Positions 2,343 to 12,659 of a stretch of DNA of 12,659 bases are shown in pieces. Position numbers and translations under genes: made by a program. Below the pieces are notes generated by a model. It was not told where the DNA came from and searched no databases. It was given only the letters and a program-made list of their open reading frames with translations. This stretch comes from an uncultured Flavobacteriales bacterium (GTDB lineage: Bacteria; Bacteroidota; Bacteroidia; Flavobacteriales_D; Sanyastnellaceae). Every line of letters starts with the position of its first letter. The stretch's first letter is position 1. The stretch spans positions 1 to 12,659 of the forward strand of contig CBFHWV010000057.1 in assembly GCA_965659565.1 (NCBI GenBank), given 5' to 3'.

Positions 2343-2498
2343 TCAGTCGTTCTTGTTGAGGATGACGAGGGCGGCGATGACGCCGGGTACCCAACCGCAT
2401 GCGGTCAGCAGGAGCACAATGAGGATGCTGCCGCACCCGCGGTCGAGGACGGCCAGGGGCGGAAACAGGATGGCGAGGATGACTTGAAGCACGGTCAT
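2343..2498 (-). CDS. Pmp3/YqaE (UPF0057) family stress-induced proteolipid, 51 aa.
   Basis: The internal Met (M35 of ORF 2343..2600) gives MTVLQVILAILFPPLAVLDRGCGSILIVLLLTACGWVPGVIAALVILNKND. This aligns colinearly with E. coli YqaE (two TM helices, conserved ILPPLGV-like motif) and has the typical family length of about 52 aa. Confidence 0.85.
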   Translation of the reverse strand: MTVLQVILAILFPPLAVLDRGCGSILIVLLLTACGWVPGVIAALVILNKND

Positions 2499-2537
2499 GC
2501 ATCGAAAATAGCCGAATCCCACGCCTTTGACCACTTG

Positions 2538-2561
2538 TTGAACTGGATTGAACTTTGAACC
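2538..2561. promoter_or_regulatory. Conserved cis-element TTGAACTGGATTGAACTTTGAACC. It has three TTGAAC-type half-sites with 10-bp phasing and lies in the divergent intergenic region between the pmp3-like gene (-) and 2593 (+).
   Basis: The 17-mer core ATTGAACTGGATTGAAC is identical to the one at 12126-12142 and matches 15/17 with the one at 6728-6744. All three copies lie in divergent promoter regions. Confidence 0.55.
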
Positions 2562-2592
2562 AAGGCGATTGGTCCTCATCTTCGGTTGAGCC

Positions 2593-2922
2593 ATGTCCAA
2601 GAACTACTACCTCGGCTGCATTGACAGCGAAAAGCGGGACATTGCCCGCCACCGTCGTGACATCGACAAATTGCGCGACGACAACCGTGATTTGATGGAG
2701 GACAAAAAGCGCGCCCGTGAGCGTTGCAAGCGCGCCCTCACCACCACCAAAGACCGCAGCCGCAAGGACAGCTACCGCAGCACCCGCGACCGCGAGCTCG
2801 ATCGCATCGATTCCAAGCGCGGTCGCAACAAGGAGAAAATCGCGGACCTCCGCGAGAAGATCCGGGGCTGCCGCGAGGACATCCAGGAGTACCGCGAGAA
2901 AATCCGCAACCTCCGCCGCTGA
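2593..2922 (+). CDS. Small, highly charged (more than half R/K/D/E) predicted coiled-coil protein of 109 aa. It resembles a hydrophilin/LEA-type protein. The family is unknown.
   Basis: ATG at 2593 with strong GC3 bias in this frame. The overlapping ORF 2717..2930 and the 5' part of 2717..3376 are the low-complexity alternate frames typical of GC-rich DNA. It lies 32 bp downstream of the 2538 motif. Confidence 0.6.
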   Translation: MSKNYYLGCIDSEKRDIARHRRDIDKLRDDNRDLMEDKKRARERCKRALTTTKDRSRKDSYRSTRDRELDRIDSKRGRNKEKIADLREKIRGCREDIQEYREKIRNLRR

Positions 2923-2956: not shown

Positions 2957-3376
2957 ATGGCCAAAGAAGTGACCGTACATGGCAGGAAACTCCTGCGAAC
3001 CCTCCAGAAAGAATTCACCGAGAAGTTTCCCTACCTCATTCTCGGATTCATCCACTCGGGTGACCGGGGAAAGTCCGTTGACGTCCGGGGGTTGGACACC
3101 TCGAAGAACATCAGCGCCACCCGAACAAAGACATCCAATGAGGAGATTTCCTTGCATGGTCGCACCAAAGTGAGCACCATGGAGGAAAAATTCTGGGATG
3201 AGCTGGGCATTGCCGTCCAGATTGCCGTCAAGGACTATCGCGGGCACAAATACTATTTCCCGATTGGCGATGGCTTCAATGAAAGGAGTTTGACCAAGGC
3301 CAATGCCTGGGCAGAGGCTGCAGGGTGTTCGGAGGTCGACGATATCGAGTCCATTTCTGGCCGGAACATCTTCTGA
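2957..3376 (+). CDS. Small tandem-repeat protein, paralog P3 (139 aa). It has two roughly 45-aa modules of the form G-R-K-L-x-x-L-x-x-E-F-x-E-x-F-G-x-x-V-Q-V.
   Basis: The internal ATG at 2957 (M81 of ORF 2717..3376) begins MAKEVTVHGRKLLRTLQKEFTEKFPYLILGF, and the second module is ISLHGRTKVSTMEEKFWDELGIAVQI. It is clearly homologous to 6798..7193, 7220..7585 and 6346..6660. Confidence 0.65.
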   Translation: MAKEVTVHGRKLLRTLQKEFTEKFPYLILGFIHSGDRGKSVDVRGLDTSKNISATRTKTSNEEISLHGRTKVSTMEEKFWDELGIAVQIAVKDYRGHKYYFPIGDGFNERSLTKANAWAEAAGCSEVDDIESISGRNIF

Positions 3377-3388
3377 ATTCTTGACCCC

Positions 3389-4243
3389 GTGACGAAAGAA
3401 GAAAGTCTGTTCCGGCAGTTCAAGCGGCTGAATCGGAAGAGCAGAGAAGCCTATGTGGTGTCCGGAATCTGGCACCGCATTGACAGCGATGAGGTGGAGA
3501 TGATTACGCAGCAGTATGTGCGGCGCAAGGAAGGCGGTCATGCCTTGACCGATGCTTATTTCCCCCAATTCAATCTCCACATCGAAGTGGACGAGGGATT
3601 TCACAGGAAGCAGGTGGTCCAGGACGATTTGCGCAAGCAGGACATTGTCGATGCGACGGGTCACGAGGTGGTGCGGATCAAGGCCGATGTGCCCCTGCGG
3701 GAGATTCACCGACAGATCGAGGGGGTGGCGGAACGGCTGAGGGCCGGGATGGATGCGCAACGCGCTGAGGGATCGTGGAAGCCATGGGACCCGACATTCC
3801 AGCATTCACCCGAACGGTATCGTGCTCTTGGTGAGGTGAGCATATCCAATGGGGCCGCATTTCACCGCATTGCCGACGCGTGCAACGCTTTTGGACATGA
3901 CTATTCCGGGTATCAAAAGGCTTGGGCCAGCAATCCTCTCGATTCAGGCACCTATCTGTGGTTTCCCAAACTGTACGAGAATCGGGACTGGGCCAATTCC
4001 CTGTCCGAGGATGGATGCACCATCACGGAGCTCTGTCTGAGTCCTCGGAAGTCCTTCCGGAAGGCGCACCATGACCGGGCCATGTCGAGGAACGTGGACC
4101 GGATCACCTTCGCTCATGGAAAGTCGCCACTGGGTGAAACGCTGTATCGGTTCGTTGGCGTGTTCCGCACGGACAAGGAGGCGAGTCACCCGGAGCGAGG
4201 CACCATTTATCGACGTGTGGCGACCTCAGCACCACTGCGTTAG
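3389..4243 (+). CDS. Fusion protein. The N-terminal part is a DUF559/Vsr-like PD-(D/E)xK endonuclease-fold domain, and the C-terminal domain of about 150 aa is unrecognised.
   Basis: TDAYFPQFNLHIEVDEGFH plus DDLRKQDIVDATGHEVVRIKADV match the DUF559 signature (DFYcP...L.vE.DGg.H ... D..Rd..L...G..VlRf.n.eV). The GTG start at 3389 lies 12 nt after P3. An alternative ATG at M38 is possible. Confidence 0.55.
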   Translation: MTKEESLFRQFKRLNRKSREAYVVSGIWHRIDSDEVEMITQQYVRRKEGGHALTDAYFPQFNLHIEVDEGFHRKQVVQDDLRKQDIVDATGHEVVRIKADVPLREIHRQIEGVAERLRAGMDAQRAEGSWKPWDPTFQHSPERYRALGEVSISNGAAFHRIADACNAFGHDYSGYQKAWASNPLDSGTYLWFPKLYENRDWANSLSEDGCTITELCLSPRKSFRKAHHDRAMSRNVDRITFAHGKSPLGETLYRFVGVFRTDKEASHPERGTIYRRVATSAPLR

Positions 4244-4413: not shown

Positions 4414-6267
4414 TCAGGCGAGTTGGTCGATGCGTTGCGCGATGACCTCACGCAGGCGGGGCAGACCCTCCTCAGAGAAGAGGGTGAAGCTCCACTGATC
4501 GGGAATGCTTTTGCCGCCCTCCTTGAATTCGATGTGGGCGTTGCCTTCCGGAGCAGGGACGCCGACCGGGTGGTAGACATGGCCCTTGATGATGAGCTTC
4601 TTGGCCTTGCAGTTGTGCAGTTTGGCGACCTTGTCCCGCCCCTTGTTGAGGGGCATGTAGGATGCAGTGACTTTGATGGCGCAGTCCCGCTCGGCCACGA
4701 AGGCCTCGAACATTTCACCCACTGAGCGCCAAAGGGGAAGGGCCTTTTGGTTGATGGCGGGGTCTTCCTTGAGGAAATTGTATTTGGACTCCATCGAGTC
4801 GAAGCGGACCACTTTGCCGCGCTTCTCCATGCCGCTCTTGCCCGCCACATCGTCGTCGACGTTGGTGATGGCAGCAAAGGACATGCTGCGTCCGAGCAGG
4901 TCATACAGGGTCTCGACGTCTTCCTCCTTTTTCCCCTCCGTGAGGGAGAAGGTGTCGCGCAAGAGGTTGAGCAGGTCCACGATGCTCTCCCATTTGGCTT
5001 TGAGGTAGGGGTCGCGCTTGCCGGCACCGAGGTCCCGGTTGCAGAACCCGTAGATGATCTGCTCCCAGACCTCGTCGGTCTTTCCCTTCATGCCATCGCC
5101 AAACTTGCTGACCGTTTCTGCGACCTCGGTCAGGTTCACGGAGAGCTTCTCGGCCATTCCGGGCTCCCAGTCGACATACTGGATGTCTTGGACCAGGAAG
5201 CGGAAGATCTTGGGGTAGCTGATCTGCAGTCCGAGGAGGGAAAACAGCATCAGATCGTCCTTGGCGTCGGGTTGGTCGCCGTCAAAGGCTTCCGGGTCGT
5301 CGCGGAAATCCGCATCGCGCAGGCTGCGCAGCAAGGAGAAACTGTTGAGGTAGCGCTTCAGGCTTCGGGGGTTGAAGCCCACCGTGTAGGTCACCACCTT
5401 GGCGTATTCGTCTTTGTACTCCTCGGGAATGGCAATGCCCATGCCGGAGAGCTTGTCTTGCATGAGCTCATCGATGGTGTAGGCCCCCGTCGGCATGGAG
5501 AATGGCACCTGGATGATCTTGTCGAAGAAGCTGCGGAATTCGCGCTCGTTCTCTTCGGTCTTCTCGCCGAATTTGCCCTCCAGGCCCTTGACGACCACCT
5601 CGTAGTCGATGGCCAGGACAAAGATGCAATTCGGGATGTCGAACATGTTTTTCAGCGCCTCGAGCACCTCCACGGCGTCTGTCGGCGGGATGCGGTCGAG
5701 GTCATCCACGAAAAAGACGACGCGCTTGTAGCTGTTCGACGGGTCGTCGAGCAGCTTTTGAATGATGGCCCGGATGTCTTCTTTGACGTCTGCGATTTCG
5801 GCCTGAACCGCTGCAGCATCTTCCCCGGCTGCTGCATCCATGATGTCCAAGCCCGTTTTGTTGGCGATGGCCTGGTTGCCGAGTCGGGTGAAAAAGCGCC
5901 CGACCTTTTTCATGGTTTGCTTGCTCTCGTCGTGGAGCGTCCATTGGCCCTCGGCTTCACAGCTGGCGATGAGCTTCTCGAGCATGCCGCGCAAGACGGC
6001 GGGTGTGGTTTCCGCCGCTCCGCGGAACATGCTGTACTCCCAAGTATTGACCCAGCTGGTCGCGATGTCCATGGCTTTGAGCTGCTCCCGCAGCATGTAC
6101 ATCATCGACGTTTTTCCCGTTCCCCACTCTCCTTGCAGTCCCACGGTCATGGGGGTGTCGCTCTTGGAAATGAACTGGGTCAGGGCGAGGGCGTAGCGCT
6201 TGGACTTGAGTTTGTCCTGGTCAACGCTCGTGATGGGCTTGTCGGTGATGCTGGAATGGTGGGTCAT
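4414..6267 (-). CDS. KAP-family P-loop NTPase, 617 aa and soluble, with no TM insert in the NTPase core. A C-terminal extension of about 130 aa has unknown function.
   Basis: It has Walker A LQGEWGTGKTS and Walker B VVFFVDDLDR. It has the KAP hallmark motifs IQVPFSMP and NPRSLKRYLNSF. The ATG at 6265-6267 is M3 of the ORF; ORF M1 is a TTG. Confidence 0.85.
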   Translation of the reverse strand: MTHHSSITDKPITSVDQDKLKSKRYALALTQFISKSDTPMTVGLQGEWGTGKTSMMYMLREQLKAMDIATSWVNTWEYSMFRGAAETTPAVLRGMLEKLIASCEAEGQWTLHDESKQTMKKVGRFFTRLGNQAIANKTGLDIMDAAAGEDAAAVQAEIADVKEDIRAIIQKLLDDPSNSYKRVVFFVDDLDRIPPTDAVEVLEALKNMFDIPNCIFVLAIDYEVVVKGLEGKFGEKTEENEREFRSFFDKIIQVPFSMPTGAYTIDELMQDKLSGMGIAIPEEYKDEYAKVVTYTVGFNPRSLKRYLNSFSLLRSLRDADFRDDPEAFDGDQPDAKDDLMLFSLLGLQISYPKIFRFLVQDIQYVDWEPGMAEKLSVNLTEVAETVSKFGDGMKGKTDEVWEQIIYGFCNRDLGAGKRDPYLKAKWESIVDLLNLLRDTFSLTEGKKEEDVETLYDLLGRSMSFAAITNVDDDVAGKSGMEKRGKVVRFDSMESKYNFLKEDPAINQKALPLWRSVGEMFEAFVAERDCAIKVTASYMPLNKGRDKVAKLHNCKAKKLIIKGHVYHPVGVPAPEGNAHIEFKEGGKSIPDQWSFTLFSEEGLPRLREVIAQRIDQLA

Positions 6268-6288
6268 GGTCAATGGGGTTTGGGGCCG

Positions 6289-6320
6289 AAAAAAACCGCG
6301 CGGCTTTGAGGGCCGCGCGG
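6289..6320 (-). terminator. Rho-independent terminator for the P4 gene. A 9-bp all-GC stem (CCGCGCGGC/GCCGCGCGG) with a 7-nt loop is followed by a run of 7 U on the minus-strand transcript.
   Basis: The plus strand reads aaaaaaaCCGCGCGGCtttgagGGCCGCGCGG at 6289-6320. On the minus strand this is a hairpin followed by UUUUUUU. It lies about 25 nt downstream of the P4 stop and about 20 nt upstream of the KAP ATG. Confidence 0.75.
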
Positions 6321-6345
6321 GAAATTGTCAGAAGGGAAGAACGCC

Positions 6346-6660
6346 TCAGGAGAGGCTGCCCAGTTTCGCGCTGTTGTCGGCGAGCTCGCTGTCGTCGGCG
6401 CTGGCCACTTGGACCTTCACACCGATTTCTTTCATGAAACGCTCCTCCACCGTCTTCACGAGCATGTTGCCGTGCAGGTCGACAGCACCGTCCCCATCGG
6501 GGCGCTCGTTGTTGTGGCGTGCGCTTGCCAAGGTCTCATCGTCGTCGGCGTACTTCTTGCCCATGCCTTTGTAAACGCGCAGGGTGGCGCCGTACTCCTC
6601 TTTGAATTGGGCCTTGATGGTCTTCACTTTCGTGTTGCCGGATGCTTTGATGTCAGCCAT
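6346..6660 (-). CDS. Small tandem-repeat protein, paralog P4 (104 aa).
   Basis: The ATG at 6658-6660 (M10 of ORF 6346..6687, whose M1 is TTG) begins MADIKASGNTKVKTIKAQFKEEYGATLRVYKG. The second module is VDLHGNMLVKTVEERFMKEIGVKVQV. Confidence 0.65.
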   Translation of the reverse strand: MADIKASGNTKVKTIKAQFKEEYGATLRVYKGMGKKYADDDETLASARHNNERPDGDGAVDLHGNMLVKTVEERFMKEIGVKVQVASADDSELADNSAKLGSLS

Positions 6661-6726
6661 GATCTTCGAATTGGTTTGTTGTGACAAGATGGGGGATGGG
6701 CTTCAAAATTCCGCGTGCCATCCTCA

Positions 6727-6757
6727 AATTGAACTAAATTGAACTGGGTTCAAATGC
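6727..6757. promoter_or_regulatory. Conserved cis-element AAATTGAACTAAATTGAACTGGGTTCAAATG. It has two direct TTGAAC sites 10 bp apart plus an inverted GTTCAA (TTGAAC-N3-GTTCAA palindrome), and lies between the divergent P4 (-) and P1 (+) genes.
   Basis: The sequence was read directly. The 15/17 match to the 2538 and 12119 elements is what ties this copy to the other two. Confidence 0.55.
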
Positions 6758-6797
6758 GAGAATTTCTGAGCTTTCTGCCTGTCAAAAACCGTCCCTG

Positions 6798-7193
6798 ATG
6801 AGTACCGAAATCACCACCACCGGATCGAAGAAGATCAAGACCCTGAAGAAGCAGTTCAACGAAAAGTTTCCGTTTCTCCGTTTGGGGTTGTTCCCCTCTT
6901 CATCCAAAGTGGATGTCGCCAACGGCAAGACCATCACCAACCTCGATGCCGACAAGACGTTGTCTGCGGTTCGTGAAAAGGTCGGGGATGGGGACATCTC
7001 CATTCACGGTCGGAAGCTGGTGAAGAACCTCGAAGCGGAATTTGAGGAGGTGTTTGGATTGTATGCCCAAGTCTGCTGGACCAGCGGTGACGGTAAGCGT
7101 TATTACACCACGGGCAGCGACCAAGACAAGAGCCTCACTGCGCTCAACCGCGAAAAGGAGGCAGAAGGCGCCAAGAAGGGCGCTTGGGAATGA
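6798..7193 (+). CDS. Small tandem-repeat protein, paralog P1 (131 aa).
   Basis: The first module is KKIKTLKKQFNEKFPFLRLGLF...DKTLSAV and the second is ISIHGRKLVKNLEAEFEEVFGLYAQV...DKSLTAL. ATG at 6798. The frame has high GC3. Confidence 0.7.
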   Translation: MSTEITTTGSKKIKTLKKQFNEKFPFLRLGLFPSSSKVDVANGKTITNLDADKTLSAVREKVGDGDISIHGRKLVKNLEAEFEEVFGLYAQVCWTSGDGKRYYTTGSDQDKSLTALNREKEAEGAKKGAWE

Positions 7194-7219
7194 ACCCCAA
7201 CTGAAAACATCAAGAACAC

Positions 7220-7585
7220 ATGCTCAAGAATCTCGTCAACCGCATCGCGGACAACTTCGACCGCGAAGAATTCGGCGTTGCGCCGCAGAAGAAACTCAAG
7301 ACCATTTCCAAGGACTTCCAGGCCGCATTCGGTCTCGAGCTGGTCTTTTACAAGGGCAAAAAGATTGCTGAGGGCGATCTGACCTTGGCTGGACTGAACA
7401 AGAAGACGGCTGATTCCGTGGACGCGAAGGCCGGCGACATGAAGATCAAGGCGAGCATGTCCGTGGGTGAGGTCGAGGATTTGTTCAAGTCCAACTTCGG
7501 CACGACTGTCCAGATCAAGTCCGGCGGCAAGCTGGTCGACAATAAGACCTCCCTCGGCGATGCCCGGCGTGCCGCTGAAGGCTGA
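7220..7585 (+). CDS. Small tandem-repeat protein, paralog P2 (121 aa).
   Basis: The first module is KKLKTISKDFQAAFGLELVFYKG and the second is SMSVGEVEDLFKSNFGTTVQIKSG. It begins 26 bp after P1 on the same strand. Confidence 0.7.
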   Translation: MLKNLVNRIADNFDREEFGVAPQKKLKTISKDFQAAFGLELVFYKGKKIAEGDLTLAGLNKKTADSVDAKAGDMKIKASMSVGEVEDLFKSNFGTTVQIKSGGKLVDNKTSLGDARRAAEG

Positions 7586-8273
7586 GGCCGCCTGGGGCTG
7601 GGCGAAAGAGCGCAACGAAGGCTTCAAGTCATGGTCGGACCGGTGGTCTGATCGAATCGGCATCGATGCACCGTCGATCCGGAAGGCGGTCTTGTGCTTT
7701 GTCTTCCTGTTCATTTGCACCCCGCTGGGGCAATTGATCGCATGGGTTCAATTCAGCGGTTATGCCCCGACCATGGATGAGTACACCGCCCAGCAGGAGG
7801 AGTACCACGACCAGTTCATGGCCTTCTTATCGGATTACCTTCCGGACGATCCGGCGGGCGATGATCTGTATCACGAGACATTGCGCAGCATGACCCAAGG
7901 GATGCGGAATGCTGCGGACATGGGAGCAAGTGGCATGGCCTGGATGGTGGACCACACCCTTTCCATGTCCACAACGGCCACGAAGTATGTCCTCGATGCA
8001 TGGAAGGCGTTCAAAATCTACCTCTTCAGTTGGATTTACGGGAGCATCCTGTACCTCGTGGCGTTCAGTTTTCTGACCGATCTGATCACGCAAAAGGTGC
8101 AGCACCGGTTTTGGAAAGGCCTGAACAGCGTCACGGGCTGGAAGCTCAAGGAGCAGGGTTTCCTCTTCGGTGCGATTCTGACGCTGATCCTGTGGCTGAC
8201 CCCGGTAGGCGACGTTATGGAAGCAGGGTTCAACGCCATTCACTGGATCACCTACGACGCGCTCTATTCTTGA
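7560..8273 (+). CDS. Multi-pass membrane protein of unknown function, with at least 3 hydrophobic helices.
   Basis: ORF 7467..8273. The first ATG in frame is at 7560 (M32), which overlaps the P2 3' end by 26 nt. GC3 is high from 7560 onward. The TM segments are AVLCFVFLFICTPLGQLIAWV, IYLFSWIYGSILYLVAFSFLTDLI and FLFGAILTLILWLTPVG. The exact start is uncertain; the alternatives are GTG at 7569 or TTG at about 7692. Confidence 0.55.
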   Translation: MPGVPLKAEAAWGWAKERNEGFKSWSDRWSDRIGIDAPSIRKAVLCFVFLFICTPLGQLIAWVQFSGYAPTMDEYTAQQEEYHDQFMAFLSDYLPDDPAGDDLYHETLRSMTQGMRNAADMGASGMAWMVDHTLSMSTTATKYVLDAWKAFKIYLFSWIYGSILYLVAFSFLTDLITQKVQHRFWKGLNSVTGWKLKEQGFLFGAILTLILWLTPVGDVMEAGFNAIHWITYDALYS

Positions 8274-8321
8274 TGGAGCCGTACCACGAGGTGGGACAAA
8301 TCTGGACCGCGAGCGGAGTGG

Positions 8322-8831
8322 TCATGTGTTCCCCCTGCTCAACGCTTTGTTGATTCGCTTGGTCAAGGCTTTCCATGCCTTGTGAAGGGCTTCTGCGCCT
8401 TCCGTGTCTTCAGCTGAATTCCACCACGAGACTTTGGTCGCCGCGGCTTGCGATTCTGCCATGTCCAACATGCGCTCGAGGGACGGTCTGTCCTGAGCCA
8501 GAATGGCGGCGCCGACGACGTTGGCCTTGGCGTGGTTGATCATGTTTTCAAGGCTCATCGATTCTTCGAAGACCTCAGTCTGGAAACTGTCCATCATGCG
8601 ATGGACCAAACCGGACCAGCTGCTGTCATGAGAGCGTTTGGTTCTGCTGAGATGCGCTTCACGTGCGGCAGTTTCAGCGTCGAGAAGGGCTTGTTGAAGT
8701 TGCTTCAACGGGTCGATTCCTGTTTCACCCGCCCCTTCTTGTTCCGAAGTCACAGGTATGGCGTGTCCACACCATTCGCATTCCCGGTCGAATGAGATTT
8801 CCGTGGGGTTCTTGCACTGTGGGCACTTCAT
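8322..8831 (-). CDS. Zinc-ribbon protein of 169 aa. It has an N-terminal CxxC...CxxC ribbon followed by an alpha-helical domain. It is possibly a YdjG-like partner of the SPFH protein.
   Basis: The internal ATG at 8829-8831 (M36 of ORF 8322..8936) begins MKCPQCKNPTEISFDRECEWCGH. Its ATG overlaps the upstream gene's stop codon (ATGA on the minus strand). Confidence 0.6.
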   Translation of the reverse strand: MKCPQCKNPTEISFDRECEWCGHAIPVTSEQEGAGETGIDPLKQLQQALLDAETAAREAHLSRTKRSHDSSWSGLVHRMMDSFQTEVFEESMSLENMINHAKANVVGAAILAQDRPSLERMLDMAESQAAATKVSWWNSAEDTEGAEALHKAWKALTKRINKALSRGNT

Positions 8832-10129
8832 GATGAAGGGTTGGTTTGAGAGGTTCCGCAGTTCGGACAAAATTTGGCGCCCACAGCCGACGGGTCTCCG
8901 CATGAAATGCAACCGGTGGACATGGGTTTGTTGCAATCAAAGCACACACTGACATCCTGTGCTTGGTCTGCGCCACAGTGGGGGCATGGATTGTAAGGGT
9001 CACCACAGTGCGGACAGAACTTACAGGAGGCGTCAAATGTCGCTTTGCATTTGTCACACGCGATGGAGGGTGTAGCTGGGCTGGTGGGTGCAGGTGGTGG
9101 TGCCTCGGTCCCATTTCCACAAGCTCCGCAGAACTTGGATTGGGGCGCCATGGGGGCCTGGCATTGGGTGCATTTTTCCGGGTTCATGGATTGTGTGACC
9201 ATGCCGGACAAATTGCCTGCAAGGGGCATGGCCATGCCCAAACCCAGCACCGTTCCGAGAAGCCCGGAGCCCGATCCGTCTCCACCGCCACCAGTTCCTG
9301 CTGTACCGATGCTTTCTGCGGCGGCTTGGGACACATCGAAGGAGCGTTCGACGGTGAAGGTTTGCAGTTGTTCTTGCCGGCGCTTCAGGCGCATGCGCTC
9401 TTCCATGTCCTCCTCCATCAAGCGGTGATACGAATCGAGGACTTGCTGCACCCGGGGATCCTCATCCACAATGGACACCGCCTCGATTTGGAACATCAGG
9501 AGTTCCAATCCAAAATCGGCCATGCTTCGGGCAATCGGCGGGGTCGCGATTTGATTGAGGGACATGACCTCAGTCTCCAATTCAAAAGGGGAGAGGGAAA
9601 GGGCTTTCATCACCTGTCCAAAAGCGGATCGAACCTGCTCGTTGATGACCCCGCGGAAGACCTTGCGAAGGCTCTTTTGATCGTAGTTCTTGGTAACGCC
9701 AACGAGGTCCACCAGAAATTTCCGACTGTCCGAAATGCGGATGCTGTAGCTGCCGCGGCTGGCAATGGGCACCGGCAGGCGGAACTTCTCCTCCATCACC
9801 TTGAAGGGGATGAGCCCCCATTTGGAGTCTTGAGACACGGACTTGTTGACAAAGAACACCTCGGCCTTGAACGGACTGTCCCCACCTGTGGCCAGTGCCA
9901 AAAGGTCGGTGAGGAGCGGAAGGTTGTATGCGGATAGGGTGTGGGTGCCTGGTCCGAATACGTCGAGAATTTTGCCACCGCGGTAGAACACGGCCTCCTG
10001 AGATTCATTGACAACGAGTTGGCTGCCAAAACGGAGTTCTTCGGTCCGTTTGGGATTGCGGTCCGATGACCATTTCCAGACGAGCTCGTCGTTTGGGCCG
10101 TCGTATTTGAGGACGTTGATGATGGGCAT
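8828..10129 (-). CDS. SPFH/Band-7-fold protein of the YdjI/COG4260 type (putative virion core protein-like), with a C-terminal tail of about 117 aa carrying about 8 CxxC pairs (multiple zinc ribbons).
   Basis: M51 of ORF 8828..10279 begins MPIINVLKYDGPNDELVWKW...LRFGSQLVVNESQEAVFYRGGKILDVFGPGTHTL, which matches the conserved N-terminal region of B. subtilis YdjI-like proteins. The C-terminal ...KFCPNCG ribbon is also as in YdjI. The start lies 1 nt after the upstream lipoprotein's stop. Confidence 0.75.
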   Translation of the reverse strand: MPIINVLKYDGPNDELVWKWSSDRNPKRTEELRFGSQLVVNESQEAVFYRGGKILDVFGPGTHTLSAYNLPLLTDLLALATGGDSPFKAEVFFVNKSVSQDSKWGLIPFKVMEEKFRLPVPIASRGSYSIRISDSRKFLVDLVGVTKNYDQKSLRKVFRGVINEQVRSAFGQVMKALSLSPFELETEVMSLNQIATPPIARSMADFGLELLMFQIEAVSIVDEDPRVQQVLDSYHRLMEEDMEERMRLKRRQEQLQTFTVERSFDVSQAAAESIGTAGTGGGGDGSGSGLLGTVLGLGMAMPLAGNLSGMVTQSMNPEKCTQCQAPMAPQSKFCGACGNGTEAPPPAPTSPATPSIACDKCKATFDASCKFCPHCGDPYNPCPHCGADQAQDVSVCFDCNKPMSTGCISCGDPSAVGAKFCPNCGTSQTNPSS

Positions 10130-10130
10130 G

Positions 10131-12065
10131 TCAGGCGGGCTGGGAGCGCAATGGGATTTTGACACTGCCTTTGTCGGTTGACAAATGCAGGTAAGGCAGG
10201 TCTTCGAGGGCGTCAGTGGTTTTGAATCGGTACTCAATGTAGTCTGCTGTGATGCGCTTCTCTCGAGGATAGACGGCATCGGGCAGGTGCATTTCGTTCA
10301 GGGAAACATATGGGTTGAGTTGAATCAATGCCCGGTCAAATCGAACTGTTCCGGTGGTGTAAACATATCCCTCCTCAAAGTCCAGTTCTGCCCCTTCTGC
10401 AATGGCTTGAAGTTCAGGTGACACATTGCGCTTGGCATCGATGGCTTCTTGGGCTCGCTTGAGTTTGAAGTCGTCTGAATCGACCCACGCGACGATGTCA
10501 TCGGTGACGAGGACGCCACGGATGTGAACGACATCCTTCAGGACTTCTTTGGGTTGTCCCTTCCATTCGAACTCCACAACGGCCGGGTCATCGAAAGACT
10601 GGGCTTCAAAAGGGCCAATGGCGCGGATCGCTCCGGGAACCTCAAATACTTCGTACGTATTGCGATAAGTCTCTGTGAAGTGGATGCAGAGGTAGAGTCT
10701 GACATTTTCGAGGTTTCGGCTCGAATGGTTGGCGATGTTGGCGAAAAGAGAATTGTCTTTGTCCATCACACCCCCCTCCTCAATGGAGATGTCGAGAAAC
10801 GAATTCTCGACCAGGAGGCTGTTGATGGCCTCAGGAAGTTCTTGTTGGCAAAAGATGAGGTCGGTCGGCAGGTAATCTTGCACGACTTGGCCGCCTCTTC
10901 GAAAGAAGTGCATTCGAATCTCTTCTTGGGCGGCGTCGACATCACCTTTATTCAGATAGATCGCCGCCTTTTGGAAGTTGGGTGAGAATGCGCCAAATCC
11001 TTCCATGGTGGATTTGTAGAGCTCGAGTACAAATTCGGATTCAACAGAGGTCCCAAAGTAGCCGCGGGCCTTGTAGGGGTTGACCATGTCCAAAAGCAAC
11101 TCGGCTTGCTTGGGATACATCAATGCGGCCTCATCAAACAACGTCATGGCCCGAGACTCATTTCCAGCCCTCGCAGCCAGCATGCCTTGGAGCAGCAGTC
11201 CGGGGGCGGATTGACCTGGATAGAGTTGCAGATATCTGTCCATCATGGACTCGAGTTCCTGCAGGGATGAGGACGTCAGCTCTGGGGAATCCGGAGCTGC
11301 CAGTGCTGCAGGTTTCATGAGTGTACTGTAGACTTTCAACAGCATGCTCTCCCGGTCGTTTGGGGCCATGTCGAGCGCTTGATTGGCCAGGGTTTCGGCC
11401 GCGGCATAGTCACCGTGATGAATGGACAAGTAGGCCTGGTCGCGCACCACACAAAACGCATCCCATTCTTTCATGTACTTCAGGAAGGCTGCGGATGATT
11501 TCTCCAAGTAGGTGGTGTAGGCTTGAGAGGCCGCATCCAGCTTTTTGGCGACCGCTTCGTCACGTTTGTGTCGTTCTGAGGCGGCACCCATGGCCCCTTT
11601 TCCGGCTTTCAGAATGCTCATGGTGGCGCTGACGGGGTCCGCTCCCAATGCAGAAATGGCCCCGGATACAGCGAGTTGAGCTGGGCCTTGAAAGTCTTGA
11701 AATGCCTGCCAAGCAGATTCGTTCGACTCCTTGTCCGCGCGCGCTGCCCTCATTTCTCTGACCACGGGCATCATGAAGGCTTGGGCGGCGATCACATCTG
11801 GGGCTACGCCGGCATAGTCGTAGGTGGCAAGGAATTGGGTGTAGGCATCGAAATCTTTGAGGCGAGAAGGCCCCTCTTCCAGTGCATAGATGACCCGCAC
11901 GGTTTGTTCAAGATTGTACTCATGGGTCTCGGATGCCTTGGCTTCCAATTCATTGGCCAGCTTGTCAAGGTCATCCGCAACGGGGGCATTCCCGCCGCAT
12001 GCCGCCAGCATCAGGGCGCAGCAGAAAAAGGTGAAAGAGAGAAAGTGGTTAGGGAAGGCTTTCAT
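10131..12065 (-). CDS. Lipoprotein of 644 aa. It has a lipobox signal (MKAFPNHFLSFTFFCCALMLAACGG), a TPR-like helical-repeat middle region and an unknown C-terminal domain. It is the first gene of the lipoprotein-SPFH-zinc-ribbon operon.
   Basis: M81 of ORF 10131..12305. The 80 aa upstream ([18 protein letters not shown]...) are not coding-like. The signal peptide with LAAC lipobox sits immediately after this Met. Confidence 0.65.
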   Translation of the reverse strand: MKAFPNHFLSFTFFCCALMLAACGGNAPVADDLDKLANELEAKASETHEYNLEQTVRVIYALEEGPSRLKDFDAYTQFLATYDYAGVAPDVIAAQAFMMPVVREMRAARADKESNESAWQAFQDFQGPAQLAVSGAISALGADPVSATMSILKAGKGAMGAASERHKRDEAVAKKLDAASQAYTTYLEKSSAAFLKYMKEWDAFCVVRDQAYLSIHHGDYAAAETLANQALDMAPNDRESMLLKVYSTLMKPAALAAPDSPELTSSSLQELESMMDRYLQLYPGQSAPGLLLQGMLAARAGNESRAMTLFDEAALMYPKQAELLLDMVNPYKARGYFGTSVESEFVLELYKSTMEGFGAFSPNFQKAAIYLNKGDVDAAQEEIRMHFFRRGGQVVQDYLPTDLIFCQQELPEAINSLLVENSFLDISIEEGGVMDKDNSLFANIANHSSRNLENVRLYLCIHFTETYRNTYEVFEVPGAIRAIGPFEAQSFDDPAVVEFEWKGQPKEVLKDVVHIRGVLVTDDIVAWVDSDDFKLKRAQEAIDAKRNVSPELQAIAEGAELDFEEGYVYTTGTVRFDRALIQLNPYVSLNEMHLPDAVYPREKRITADYIEYRFKTTDALEDLPYLHLSTDKGSVKIPLRSQPA

Positions 12066-12118
12066 GAGGAGGAAAATAGGCAGCGAATCATTGGAAAGGT
12101 GGTCAGTGGCTGTGTCGA

Positions 12119-12143
12119 GTTCAAATTGAACTGGATTGAACCC
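12119..12143. promoter_or_regulatory. Conserved cis-element GTTCAAATTGAACTGGATTGAACCC. It has an inverted GTTCAA followed by two direct TTGAAC sites, and lies in the divergent region between the lipoprotein operon (-) and purL (+).
   Basis: The 17-mer core is identical to the one at 2538-2554. It sits 54 bp upstream of the lipoprotein ATG (minus strand) and about 148 bp upstream of the purL ATG. Confidence 0.55.
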
Positions 12144-12289
12144 TGCTTTTTTGATGGCGTGGCGATGTGTGGTTTGGTTCTTCTTCAGCTGTTGGAAAAG
12201 CCCCATGAGGCGAATGAGGTGAGGTCGGGTCAGGTGCAGGTGCGGGCGTACCTTCGCGGGACGATTTCGCACCCCGATACGTTCGCAAC

Positions 12290-12659
12290 ATGGCCCAACG
12301 CGCATCCACTGCCCCCGCCACCCTCGAGCAAGCCCAAGAGATGGGCCTGCGCCCCGAGGAATTCGACCTGATCAAGGAGATCCTTGGACGGACCCCCAAC
12401 TTCACCGAGATGTGCATCTACTCGGTCATGTGGTCCGAGCACTGCAGCTACAAGAACTCGATCCAGTGGCTGAAGACCCTGCCCAAGGATGGTCCGCATT
12501 TGCTGGTCAAAGCCGGGGAGGAAAACGCCGGCATTGTCGACATCGGCGACGGCATCGGGTGTGCCTTCAAAATCGAGAGCCACAACCACCCCAGTGCGCT
12601 GGAGCCTTACCAGGGGGCCGCGACCGGCGTGGGTGGCATCAACCGCGACATCTTCACCA
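12290..12659 (+). CDS. purL: Phosphoribosylformylglycinamidine synthase subunit PurL (FGAM synthase II). The N-terminal 123 aa are present and the gene is 3'-truncated by the window edge.
   Basis: [57 protein letters not shown]...GIVDIGDG...[30 protein letters not shown] is colinear with the B. subtilis PurL N-terminus ([40 protein letters not shown]). It is not in the ORF track because there is no stop codon inside the window. Confidence 0.92.

What the first reader, a model, noticed from the sequence alone, without database searches (positions are those of the whole stretch)
6346..7585. Family of four small tandem-duplicated proteins, each heading a unit with a different downstream partner (nuclease fusion, KAP NTPase, membrane protein)
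The four paralogs are P1 6798..7193, P2 7220..7585, P4 6346..6660 (-) and P3 2957..3376. They share a two-module architecture with a repeating signature of roughly G-R-K-L-V-K-x-L-x-x-E-F-x-E-x-F-G-x-x-V-Q-V ... D-x-x-K-[ST]-L. At the DNA level they are well diverged, so they are old paralogs and not recent duplicates. Each one is the 5' gene of a different arrangement. P3 is followed by the DUF559-like nuclease fusion. P4 is followed by a terminator and then the KAP NTPase. P1 and P2 are followed by the overlapping membrane protein. A conserved small partner with swapped effector-like neighbours is the layout seen in modular conflict/defence systems, or in stress systems with alternative outputs. 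I do not recognise the fold. I noted a weak resemblance to beta-alpha-beta modules (a GR..E.K..L motif, as in tautomerase-like folds), but it is unconvincing. This is my best candidate for an undescribed system.
Basis: seen in the sequence. Interest (0 to 1): 0.75.

Follow-up and report, generated by a model that had tools for sequence, protein, structure and literature searches.

The report
Undescribed small-protein family beside KAP NTPase
Four small genes in this window are real, ancient paralogs of an unannotated two-module protein family that is widespread in Bacteroidota and repeatedly sits beside a KAP-type NTPase and anti-phage-type nucleases; what it does is still unknown.

Summary
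P1 (6798-7193), P2 (7220-7585), P4 (6346-6660, minus strand) and P3 (2957-3376) are genuine paralogs, with pairwise BLASTP E-values from 3e-25 to 2e-3. Each is built from a duplicated beta-alpha-beta module (hhalign 96.6%, E 6e-10).

- **Core pair.** P2 and P4 co-occur in 70 of 80 sampled Bacteroidota genomes.
- **Usual neighbours.** A basic coiled-coil protein is present in 54 of 80 loci and a soluble KAP NTPase in 31 of 80, in Flavobacteriales, Bacteroidales and Cytophagales, despite rearranged gene order.
- **Nucleases.** Nucleases of several superfamilies occupy neighbouring positions: PvuRts1I-like here; PD-T4-3-like GIY-YIG and PDDEXK_4 elsewhere.
- **No one-to-one pairing.** The nuclease occurs without P3 in close relatives. 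The "membrane protein partner" belongs to a 4.6 kb insertion unique to this window. KAP orthologs also occur without P genes.

The P domain is also fused to PspC, to a TM segment plus OmpA, to TerB-like/LRR regions and to hypervariable acidic tails. My best guess (confidence about 0.4) is a cytoplasmic docking or regulatory domain in a KAP-linked stress/defence island.

The parts
7220..7585 (+). P2, 121 aa. Most conserved subfamily of the new two-module 'P domain' family, and one half of the conserved P2+P4 pair.
   Evidence: ORF. Family HMM 2e-48. Orthologs at 54-88% identity in 78 loci of Flavobacteriales, Bacteroidales and Cytophagales. Called as a gene, unnamed.
6346..6660 (-). P4, 104 aa. 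Minimal or 'canonical' form of the domain (two beta-alpha-beta modules only), and the other half of the conserved pair.
   Evidence: ORF. HMM 1.5e-32. Orthologs at 34-93% identity, co-occurring with P2 in 70 of 80 loci. AlphaFold model pLDDT 82.4, E4-7 H12-23 E26-31 | E59-62 H68-79 E82-86.
6798..7193 (+). P1, 131 aa. Paralog of the P1/P3 subfamily, which carries a C-terminal extension (...RYYTTGSDxDKSLTxLN...). Forms an operon-like pair with P2 (26 nt gap).
   Evidence: ORF. BLASTP to P3 3e-25. Absent from close relatives L021 and L022. AlphaFold model pLDDT 82.8, pTM 0.70.
2957..3376 (+). P3, 139 aa. Second P1/P3-type paralog, lying between the coiled-coil gene and the restriction enzyme gene.
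   Evidence: ORF. HMM 1e-35. Present in L013-L020 and L028-L029; absent in L021, L022 and L009.
4414..6273 (-). Soluble KAP-family P-loop NTPase, 619 aa. The most frequent large neighbour of the P genes.
   Evidence: Pfam KAP_NTPase 3e-36. PADLOC PDC-S20 1e-34 and PifA 3e-29, over the N-terminal NTPase region only. Orthologs at 34-55% identity next to P genes in Paludibacter and Flagellimonas. Present in 31 of 80 loci.
6296..6320 (-). Intrinsic-terminator-like hairpin between the P4 stop codon and the KAP start codon.
   Evidence: 9 G-C pairs plus TTTTTTT. Hairpins of different sequence follow P4 in L013, L009/L021, L076, L107 and L042.
2593..2922 (+). Basic coiled-coil protein, 109 aa, pI 10.1. 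Conserved companion of the P genes.
   Evidence: No Pfam match above the curated cut-offs. Homologous to the 80-108 aa coiled-coil cluster: phmmer 1e-7 to 2e-8 against Flavobacteriales forms, and HMM 5e-6. Present in 54 of 80 loci.
3389..4243 (+). PvuRts1I-like modification-dependent (type IV) restriction endonuclease, with an N-terminal nuclease domain and a C-terminal SRA domain. A co-resident defence gene, not a P-specific partner.
   Evidence: Pfam PvuRts1I-like_N 7e-33 and SRA 3e-34. PADLOC mREase_II 2.4e-87. Alleles at 96%, 54% and 49% identity in relatives, found both with and without P3.
6729..6753 (.). Tandem/palindromic TTGAAC motif in the divergent P4|P1 intergenic region. Candidate shared operator. 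Further copies lie at 2538-2552 and 12126-12140.
   Evidence: 5 matches against 0.23 expected by chance. Conserved at the same two promoter positions in L009-L012 and L021/L022.

Best explanation
The four ORFs belong to an undescribed cytoplasmic protein domain family, called here the P domain. It is about 100 aa long and is an internal duplication of a beta-alpha-beta module ending in a D-D-x-x-T-L loop. The family is widespread mainly in Bacteroidota.

P2 and P4 are its conserved core pair. P1 and P3 are extra paralogs of a third subfamily that come and go even between close relatives.

My proposal is that the P domain is a non-enzymatic docking or regulatory module. On this reading, P2 and P4 form a small hetero-oligomer, probably abundant because P4 has its own terminator. 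That oligomer would connect other P-domain proteins to the neighbouring soluble KAP P-loop NTPase and the basic coiled-coil protein, within a stress/defence gene island. The other P-domain proteins include forms tethered to the membrane or envelope (fused to PspC, to TM-OmpA, or to TerB-like/LRR regions) and forms carrying a histone-H1-like tail.

The nucleases beside the P genes are independent, interchangeable defence genes that accumulate in this island. These are the PvuRts1I-like type IV enzyme here, and PD-T4-3-like GIY-YIG and PDDEXK_4 enzymes elsewhere. They are not cognate partners of individual paralogs.

Shown: the paralogy, the internal repeat, the size and taxonomic spread of the family, the absence of any known relative, the neighbourhood statistics, the fusions, and the insertions and deletions among relatives.

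Inferred: the adaptor role, P2/P4 hetero-oligomerisation, coupling to the KAP NTPase, and any defence or stress function.
For: - **Paralogy and internal duplication:**
- **No enzyme-like motifs and no known family:**
- **Predicted cytoplasmic.** There is no signal peptide or TM segment. The P domain is N-terminal to TM plus OmpA and to PspC in fusion proteins.
- **P2+P4 pair.** They co-occur in 70 of 80 loci, and all 32 loci with full flanks hold at least 2 P ORFs.
- **KAP NTPase proximity.** Present within 10 kb in 31 of 80 loci. It stays close although the order changes: KAP-P4-P2 in Flavobacteriales, P2-x-P4-cc-KAP in Bacteroidales, P4-P2-KAP in Aquirufa, divergent here, and a 12 nt gap between P2 and KAP in Paludibacter. 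A KAP gene again lies directly upstream of a P-domain gene in an unrelated marine clade (L120).
- **Same domain on several proteins of one cluster.** Partners include PspC (4.5e-20), OmpA (2.8e-18), LRR_5 with a TerB-like region, histone-H1-like tails, FGE-sulfatase and DUF6273.
- **Polymorphic tails.** Near-identical N-terminal P domains carry unrelated acidic C-termini in 350 of 2028 pairs.
- **Defence-type neighbours:**
- **Terminator hairpins after P4 in six lineages:**
- **Shared TTGAAC motif upstream of the coiled-coil/P3 operon and the P1/P2 operon:**
Against: - The KAP proteins themselves carry no P domain. In some searches no KAP ORF met the E <= 1e-3 P-HMM cut-off. In one search, run at E <= 1 with filters off, the only weak hits (E about 0.66) fell in a small alternate-frame ORF lying inside the KAP gene, not on the KAP protein. 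Homotypic recruitment to the NTPase is therefore not indicated.
- 59% of full-flank P2 loci have no KAP gene within 10 kb.
- Three independently sampled KAP-ortholog lineages have no P gene within 8 kb.
- Much of the neighbourhood (EamA, DUF481, DUF4230, Ion_trans, TerB, DUF2779) could simply be inherited synteny.
- P2 is unusually conserved for a defence gene, at about 60% identity between classes.
- The family is essentially absent from phage, plasmid and viral-contig collections.
Confidence: 0.4

Rival explanations
1. Synteny only. P2/P4, with the coiled-coil protein, form a self-contained small-protein module, for example an envelope-stress or nucleoid-associated module. It has no functional tie to the KAP NTPase or the nucleases. 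They merely share a conserved, insertion-prone chromosomal region of Bacteroidota.
For: - KAP-DUF481-cc-ZnR-GIY-YIG clusters exist without P genes.
- Most P2 loci lack a KAP gene within 10 kb.
- Many other neighbours recur, including Ser/Thr kinase, TerB, DUF4230, pyroglutamyl peptidase, Ion_trans and OM barrels. This points to long-range synteny.
- Fusions point to envelope stress (PspC, OmpA, TerB-like) and to histone-H1-like tails.
- P2 is highly conserved.
- The region is insertion-prone in close relatives.
Against: - P-KAP proximity survives several different gene orders in three orders, while the other neighbours are lost. In Aquirufa only P4-P2-KAP remains.
- The P2-KAP gap is only 12 nt in Paludibacter.
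- KAP adjacency recurs in the unrelated marine clade.
Confidence: 0.3
2. P2+P4 (with or without the coiled-coil protein) are themselves a defence or abortive-infection system or its sensor. This would be discovered by the usual 'guilt by association' with defence islands, and would be independent of the KAP NTPase.
For: - They are embedded among PADLOC-recognised defence genes: mREase_II 2e-87, PD-T4-3 1e-46, PDC-S26 and PDC-S20/PifA-like KAP.
- Distribution is patchy: 246 of 185,579 species by the pattern scan.
- Gene content is variable between P2 and P4.
- The marine clade has polymorphic C-terminal tails.
Against: - There is no effector-like domain in P2, P4 or the coiled-coil protein.
- Sequence conservation is strong.
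- The family is not found on phages or plasmids.
- The pattern scan undercounts, so patchiness is uncertain.
Confidence: 0.12
3. Each paralog is the dedicated small partner (regulator, antitoxin or specificity subunit) of the gene downstream of it: P3 with the nuclease, P4 with the KAP NTPase, and P1/P2 with the membrane protein.
For: - P3 lies 12 nt upstream of the nuclease, and P4 lies 72 nt upstream of the KAP gene.
- The P3-nuclease order is kept in L013-L020 and L028-L029.
- P4 lies directly upstream of KAP also in L076 and L107.
Against: - The nuclease occurs without P3 (L021, L022, L009), and P3-like genes occur without the nuclease (L001, L002).
- PvuRts1I-type enzymes are self-sufficient (established knowledge of the family).
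- A terminator separates P4 from the KAP gene.
- The membrane protein is part of a window-specific 4.6 kb insertion.
Confidence: 0.08

Closest known systems
KAP-family NTPase defence proteins (PifA of the F plasmid, QatA of Qat, PADLOC candidate PDC-S20)
   Same: The neighbour at 4414-6273 has the KAP P-loop domain with Walker A GEWGTGKTS and Walker B VVFFVDDLD. It matches PDC-S20 (1e-34), PifA (3e-29) and QatA (7e-24) over the NTPase region. It sits among restriction-type nucleases.
   Different: Only the N-terminal roughly 250-310 residues match. The NCBIfam QatA score is 92.9 bits against a cut-off of 600. No QatBCD or other known partners are present. The protein is soluble, with no inserted TM segments. 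None of the known KAP systems has a P-domain partner.
Ubiquitin-like beta-grasp domains and the MCU N-terminal domain (fold level only)
Adaptor domains of NTPase-centred conflict systems (effector-associated domains, bacterial Death-like domains; Kaur et al. 2020, PMC7159879) and sub-membrane adaptor domains of PSP systems (Toastrack, SHOCT-like; PMC11237479)
   Same: The logic is the same: one small non-catalytic domain is found standalone and fused to many different partner domains encoded in the same neighbourhood as a STAND/KAP-type NTPase or envelope-stress sensors.
   Different: There is no sequence relationship (Pfam scan negative). The KAP NTPase lacks the domain, so the defining homotypic NTPase-effector pairing is missing. 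The PSP survey does not mention such a domain.
PvuRts1I-family modification-dependent restriction endonucleases
   Same: The gene downstream of P3 is a full-length member of this family.
   Different: It is a neighbour, not part of the P family, and relatives show it does not need P3.

Membership tests
Ubiquitin-like / beta-grasp superfamily | Significant structural match to beta-grasp domains | tested here: inconclusive
Ubiquitin-like / beta-grasp superfamily | Sequence-profile match to ubiquitin-family models | tested here: not met
   Pfam ubiquitin matches 2 of 70 members at E 0.03, and Rad60-SLD matches 1 of 70. hhalign of the family profile against ubiquitin gives 0.35% probability. The only hit above a cut-off is Ubiquitin_TPR1, 29.3 bits, summed over the repeats of P0138.
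Ubiquitin-like / beta-grasp superfamily | Conjugation apparatus: C-terminal Gly-Gly and E1/E2/JAB neighbours | tested here: not met
   No GG terminus in P1-P4 (sequences). None of the neighbouring proteins that were scanned matched an E1, E2 or JAB family; most ORFs in the related loci were clustered but not scanned.
KAP NTPase defence systems (PifA / Qat / PDC-S20) | KAP P-loop NTPase present | tested here: met
   Pfam KAP_NTPase 3e-36, 125.6 bits against a cut-off of 20.
KAP NTPase defence systems (PifA / Qat / PDC-S20) | Full-length equivalence to a named system protein, and presence of its partner genes | tested here: not met
   NCBIfam QatA scores 92.9 bits against a cut-off of 600. PADLOC hits cover only model positions of about 3-312. 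The window neighbours scanned (P1-P4 and the membrane ORF) matched no PADLOC model, and the PvuRts1I-like nuclease matched only mREase_II.
KAP NTPase defence systems (PifA / Qat / PDC-S20) | Anti-phage activity | not testable with these tools
   Requires phage challenge of a strain carrying or lacking the locus.
Two-gene small-partner/effector modules (toxin-antitoxin or immunity-like) | Obligate conserved adjacency of the small gene and its effector across genomes | tested here: not met
   The nuclease occurs without P3 in L021, L022 and L009. P3-like genes occur without the nuclease in L001 and L002. The membrane ORF is absent from all relatives.
Effector-associated (homotypic adaptor) domains of NTP-dependent conflict systems | The same small domain on the NTPase and on the effectors or sensors of the locus | tested here: not met
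   The P domain is found on many partner proteins but on none of the KAP ORFs. In the 80-locus HMM/BLAST census no KAP ORF met the E <= 1e-3 P-HMM cut-off. A laxer search of the KAP-sampled loci (E <= 1, filters off) also gave no hit on the KAP ORF itself.
Defence-island genes (guilt by association) | Recurrent co-localisation with recognised defence genes in diverse genomes | tested here: met
   KAP (PDC-S20/PifA-like) in 31 of 80 loci. GIY-YIG in 15 of 80; the Flavobacterium KAP-cluster GIY-YIG (L112), taken here as representative of the family, matches PD-T4-3 at 1e-46. PvuRts1I-like in 7 of 80. PDDEXK_4/PDC-S26 in 12 of 80.
Defence-island genes (guilt by association) | Carriage on mobile elements or phages, and rapid turnover | tested here: inconclusive
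   No tblastn hits in phages or plasmids, and 1 hit among 2.9 million viral contigs. However, P1 and P3 are gained or lost between close relatives, and TA, IS or ICE-type genes flank some loci.

The most novel reading that the evidence does not exclude
P2, P4 and the basic coiled-coil protein are the core subunits of a previously unrecognised surveillance system that is widespread in Bacteroidota. In it, a new tandem beta-alpha-beta (beta-grasp-like) domain acts as the common docking module. This module ties membrane or envelope sensors (P-PspC, P-TM-OmpA, LRR-TerB-P) and DNA-tethered forms (H1-tail-P) to a soluble KAP NTPase switch. The P2...P4 interval serves as a dedicated landing slot for interchangeable nuclease effectors.
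Probability: 0.15. Interest if true: 0.8.

Novelty: new variant of a known kind. Interest (0 to 1): 0.55.

Why it matters
This family has more than 1,500 sequence clusters and no annotation at all. It occurs in major gut lineages (Bacteroides, Alistipes, Prevotella, Rikenellaceae) and marine lineages (Flavobacteriales, Cytophagales).

It is the most consistent small-protein companion seen here for a conserved group of KAP NTPases. KAP NTPases include the classical PifA exclusion protein, and their mechanism is still poorly understood.

If the P domain is the adaptor of such a system, three things follow. It would define a new signalling domain. It would give a handle on how KAP NTPases are wired to sensors. 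And it would provide a practical marker, the P2...P4 interval, for finding new defence genes in Bacteroidota.

If it is instead an envelope-stress or nucleoid protein pair, it is still a domain that deserves a family definition and a solved structure.

Tried and rejected
- **Library searches.** Pfam, NCBIfam, PHROGs and PADLOC on all four paralogs found nothing. A Pfam census of 70 members at E <= 1 found no consistent family. A PDB sequence-profile search found nothing.
- **Ubiquitin comparison.** hhalign was negative.
- **Pattern scan with the four-paralog alignment.** It was too divergent, so a P2-subfamily alignment was used instead.
- **Mobile-element collections.** Phage and plasmid tblastn and viral-contig scans were essentially empty. 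A phage anti-defence or plasmid origin is therefore unlikely.
- **Rfam on the window.** No hits.
- **Flanking repeats for the 4.6 kb insertion.** None were convincing.
- **Literature.** Searches on KAP/GIY-YIG/Bacteroidetes, KAP/ubiquitin-like/conflict systems and PSP partner domains found no description of this domain. [quoted passage not shown]
- **Conserved Lys-Lys-x-Lys-Thr motif as a kinase site.** I judged it more likely to be a helix N-cap, and did not test it.
Full report
**1. Observation**

The window holds four small ORFs: P3 2957-3376 (+), P4 6346-6660 (-), P1 6798-7193 (+) and P2 7220-7585 (+). With these ATG starts they are present as called but unnamed genes of 139, 104, 131 and 121 aa in public collections.

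They are significantly similar to one another. BLASTP E-values run from 3e-25 (P1-P3) to 2e-3 (P2-P3). A family HMM scores them at 1e-32 to 2e-48.

The two-module architecture is real. Cross-module BLASTP hits exist. A profile-profile comparison of the N-terminal half against the C-terminal half gives 96.6% probability and E 6e-10. AlphaFold models show beta-alpha-beta twice: P1 has pLDDT 82.8 and pTM 0.70, and P4 has pLDDT 82.4 and pTM 0.66. P1 adds short helices and a C-terminal helix.

The proteins have no signal peptide or TM segment. Their pI values are 5.7 to 9.3.

**2. What the family is**

None of the four matches Pfam, NCBIfam, PHROGs or PADLOC. A Pfam census of 70 members at E <= 1 shows no recurrent family. 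A PDB sequence-profile search is empty.

The family is large. A word-indexed search found 1243 proteins. An exhaustive HMMER search found 1581 representatives of 50%-identity clusters, 480 of them at E <= 1e-10.

A pattern scan of one genome per species found P2-type genes in 246 species. The best 80 are Flavobacteriales, Bacteroidales, Cytophagales and one Pontiellaceae. The Flavobacteriales include Crocinitomicaceae MAGs, which are the lineage of this window. The Bacteroidales include Bacteroides cellulolyticus, Alistipes, Rikenellaceae, Prevotella, Muribaculaceae and Paludibacter. The Cytophagales include Aquirufa and Cyclobacteriaceae.

The family is essentially absent from phage, plasmid and viral-contig collections.

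**3. Close relatives test the 'unit' model**

Marine metagenome contigs 76-87% identical to the window keep this order: coiled-coil gene, P3, PvuRts1I-like nuclease, KAP (-), P4 (-), P1, P2, purL.

- **The membrane ORF is not a partner.** Window 7587-12222 is a 4.6 kb insertion absent from all relatives. Homology stops exactly at the P2 stop codon and resumes upstream of purL, whose start is at 12290.
- **P1 and P3 are dispensable.** L021 and L022 lack P1 and P3 but keep the nuclease (96% identical), the KAP gene, P4 and P2. L009 has a nuclease homolog (49%) preceded by an unrelated 258-aa ORF instead of P3.
- **P3 does not always accompany the nuclease.** The P3-like gene of L001/L002 (60% identity) has no such nuclease nearby.
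- **The nuclease is a complete enzyme.** It is a full PvuRts1I-type modification-dependent enzyme.

**4. Distant relatives show the conserved core**

I ran an ORF, HMM and BLAST census over the 80 genome loci.

| Feature near P2 | Loci |
|---|---|
| P2 plus a short P4-type gene | 70 of 80 |
| At least 2 P ORFs, among loci with 8 kb or more on both sides | 32 of 32; 16 have 3 or more |
| Homolog of the window's basic coiled-coil protein (2593-2922) | 54 of 80 |
| Ortholog of the window's KAP NTPase (34-55% identity) | 31 of 80; 13 of 32 with full flanks, 9 within 3 kb |

The proximity to KAP persists although gene order differs:
- (GIY)-KAP-(DUF481)-P4-(P3-like)-P2 in Flavobacteriales;
- P2-[variable]-P4-cc-KAP in Bacteroidales;
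- P4-P2-KAP in Aquirufa;
- GIY-P2-KAP with a 12 nt P2-KAP gap in Paludibacter;
- divergent P4-KAP | P1-P2 in this window.

A 700-aa KAP gene also lies directly upstream of a P-domain gene in an unrelated marine clade (L120).

Against an obligate link, three independently sampled KAP-ortholog lineages (50-57% identity) carry no P gene within 8 kb. They carry EamA, a 425-aa protein, KAP, DUF481, the coiled-coil protein, a zinc-ribbon protein and GIY-YIG.

**5. The surroundings**

Positions between and beside the P genes hold interchangeable nucleases:
- PvuRts1I-like, in 7 of 80 loci, including Bacteroidales L036, L039 and L062;
- GIY-YIG of the LEM-3 type, in 15 of 80, which matches the PADLOC model PD-T4-3 at 1e-46 over its full length;
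- PDDEXK_4, in 12 of 80, matching PDC-S26;
- an unclassified 221-aa protein with a PD-(D/E)XK-like motif;
- a weak GIY-YIG in L076.

Bacteroidales loci also share further neighbours: a TM Ser/Thr kinase, TerB, two DUF4230 genes, an OM barrel (Phenol_MetA_deg or DUF481), pyroglutamyl peptidase and an Ion_trans protein.

**6. Fusions**

The P domain occurs:
- N-terminal to PspC (4.5e-20);
- N-terminal to a middle domain plus TM plus OmpA (2.8e-18);
- together with LRR_5 and a TerB-like stretch;
- C-terminal to histone-H1-like Ala/Lys-rich tails (P1/P3 subfamily in Bacteroidales);
- with FGE-sulfatase, DUF6273 and TM2+HTH;
- as 2-4 tandem copies.

In a marine clade (GC 32-47%), single long proteins carry P domains of 70% identity or more followed by unrelated, mostly acidic C-termini. 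This holds for 350 of 2028 pairs.

**7. Expression signals**

A strong terminator hairpin follows P4 in the window. Hairpins of unrelated sequence follow P4 in five other lineages. This suggests that the P genes are expressed at a higher level than, or separately from, the KAP gene.

A motif of tandem TTGAAC units 10 bp apart lies upstream of the coiled-coil/P3/nuclease operon, in the P4|P1 intergenic region, and in the intergenic region at the right end of the insertion. There are 5 matches against 0.23 expected by chance. It is conserved at the first two positions in the nearest relatives, including L021, where it now precedes P2.

**8. Interpretation**

The four genes are members of an undescribed domain family. 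Its core is the P2+P4 pair.

The best-supported reading (confidence about 0.4) is that the P domain is a non-catalytic cytoplasmic docking or regulatory module. It would operate in a KAP-NTPase-linked stress/defence island. The nucleases would be independent co-residents of that island.

The main rival (confidence about 0.3) is that co-localisation reflects inherited synteny in an insertion-prone region, and that P2/P4 act on their own, for example in envelope stress or nucleoid binding. A role as a stand-alone defence module has confidence about 0.12.

No step of any mechanism has been shown. Paralogy, family extent, context statistics and fusions are shown. Interactions and function are inferred.

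**9. Novelty and score**

The family itself is unannotated and structurally unassigned. The kind of arrangement, small accessory proteins beside an NTPase and nucleases in a variable island, is familiar.

I rate it a new variant of a known kind, with interest 0.55. There is a 0.15 chance that it is the core of a distinct KAP-linked surveillance system widespread in Bacteroidota; that reading would deserve an interest of about 0.8.

Noticed in passing
window 7587-12222: A 4.6 kb block absent from all close relatives is inserted exactly after the P2 stop codon and before purL. It encodes four genes. These are a multi-TM protein (7560/7467-8273, +), a zinc-ribbon protein (8322-8936, -) and an SPFH Band_7_1 protein with double zinc ribbons (8828-10279, -; Pfam 3e-41). 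The fourth is a TPR lipoprotein (10131-12065/12305, -). The Band-7+ZnR / ZnR combination recalls the B. subtilis YdjL/YdjG PSP-associated module described in PMC11237479. No flanking repeats were found.
   Followed up: partly
window 2538-2552, 6729-6753, 12126-12140: The motif TTGAAC-N3-RTTSAA (tandem ATTGAAC 10 bp apart, with one palindromic copy) occurs only in three promoter-like intergenic regions. There are 5 matches against 0.23 expected by chance. It is conserved at the coiled-coil and P-operon promoters in L009-L012 and L021/L022, but not in the L013/L028 lineage. It is a candidate shared operator.
   Followed up: partly
L115-L194 (marine metagenome contigs); P0224, P0233, P0238, P0240, P0249, P0252, P0260, P0263: A marine clade has P domains of 70-97% identity, followed by a Lys/Arg-rich linker and completely unrelated, mostly acidic C-terminal regions of 100-500 aa with no Pfam match. 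This is a polymorphic, cassette-like family. Usually there is one such gene per locus, and DUF2779-type nucleases recur nearby.
   Followed up: partly
L109-L114 (Flavobacterium and relatives): Orthologs of the window's KAP NTPase sit in a conserved cluster without any P gene. The cluster is EamA, a 425-aa unknown protein, KAP, DUF481, a 90-aa coiled-coil protein, a 71-aa four-Cys zinc-ribbon protein, and a GIY-YIG protein matching PD-T4-3 at 1e-46. KAP+DUF481+cc+GIY-YIG may be a module in its own right.
   Followed up: partly
L060:5782-6354, L090:9630-10241, L047:14448-14960, L033:6266-6874: In Bacteroidales, the P1/P3-type paralogs carry 40-70 aa histone-H1-like Ala/Lys/Thr-rich N-terminal tails. 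This suggests tethering to DNA or to another polyanion. The window's P1 and P3 lack these tails.
   Followed up: no
L051:8826-9977, L046:2458-3756, P0132, P0156, P0228, L053:11119-12804: A second unannotated module of about 60 aa (K-x-Y-x-I-T...DG...KP-x-L-x-E-x-A...W-x-T-x-Q-x-G-x-x-L-x-x-F) is found N-terminal to P domains, N-terminal to TM-OmpA proteins, and at the C-terminus of an LRR-TerB-P protein.
   Followed up: no
window 3389-4243 compared with L013-L019, L009, L021: The PvuRts1I-like enzyme shows allelic replacement between close relatives. It is 96% identical in L021/L022, but only 54% (374-aa form) in L013-L019 and 49% in L009. Meanwhile the flanking KAP gene stays at 82-94% identity. 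This is typical turnover of a defence gene inside a stable frame.
   Followed up: partly
window 2343-2600 (-): A Pmp3 (proteolipid membrane potential modulator) gene, Pfam 2e-11, is transcribed divergently from the coiled-coil/P3/nuclease operon. It shares the intergenic region that carries the TTGAAC motif. It is present in L009 but not in the L013 lineage.
   Followed up: no
window 6274-6345 and the equivalent positions in L013, L009, L021, L076, L107, L042: The hairpin after the P4 stop codon is conserved as a structure but not as a sequence, across Flavobacteriales and Bacteroidales. This is consistent with a selected terminator or attenuator between the P genes and the KAP or coiled-coil genes.
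   Followed up: partly
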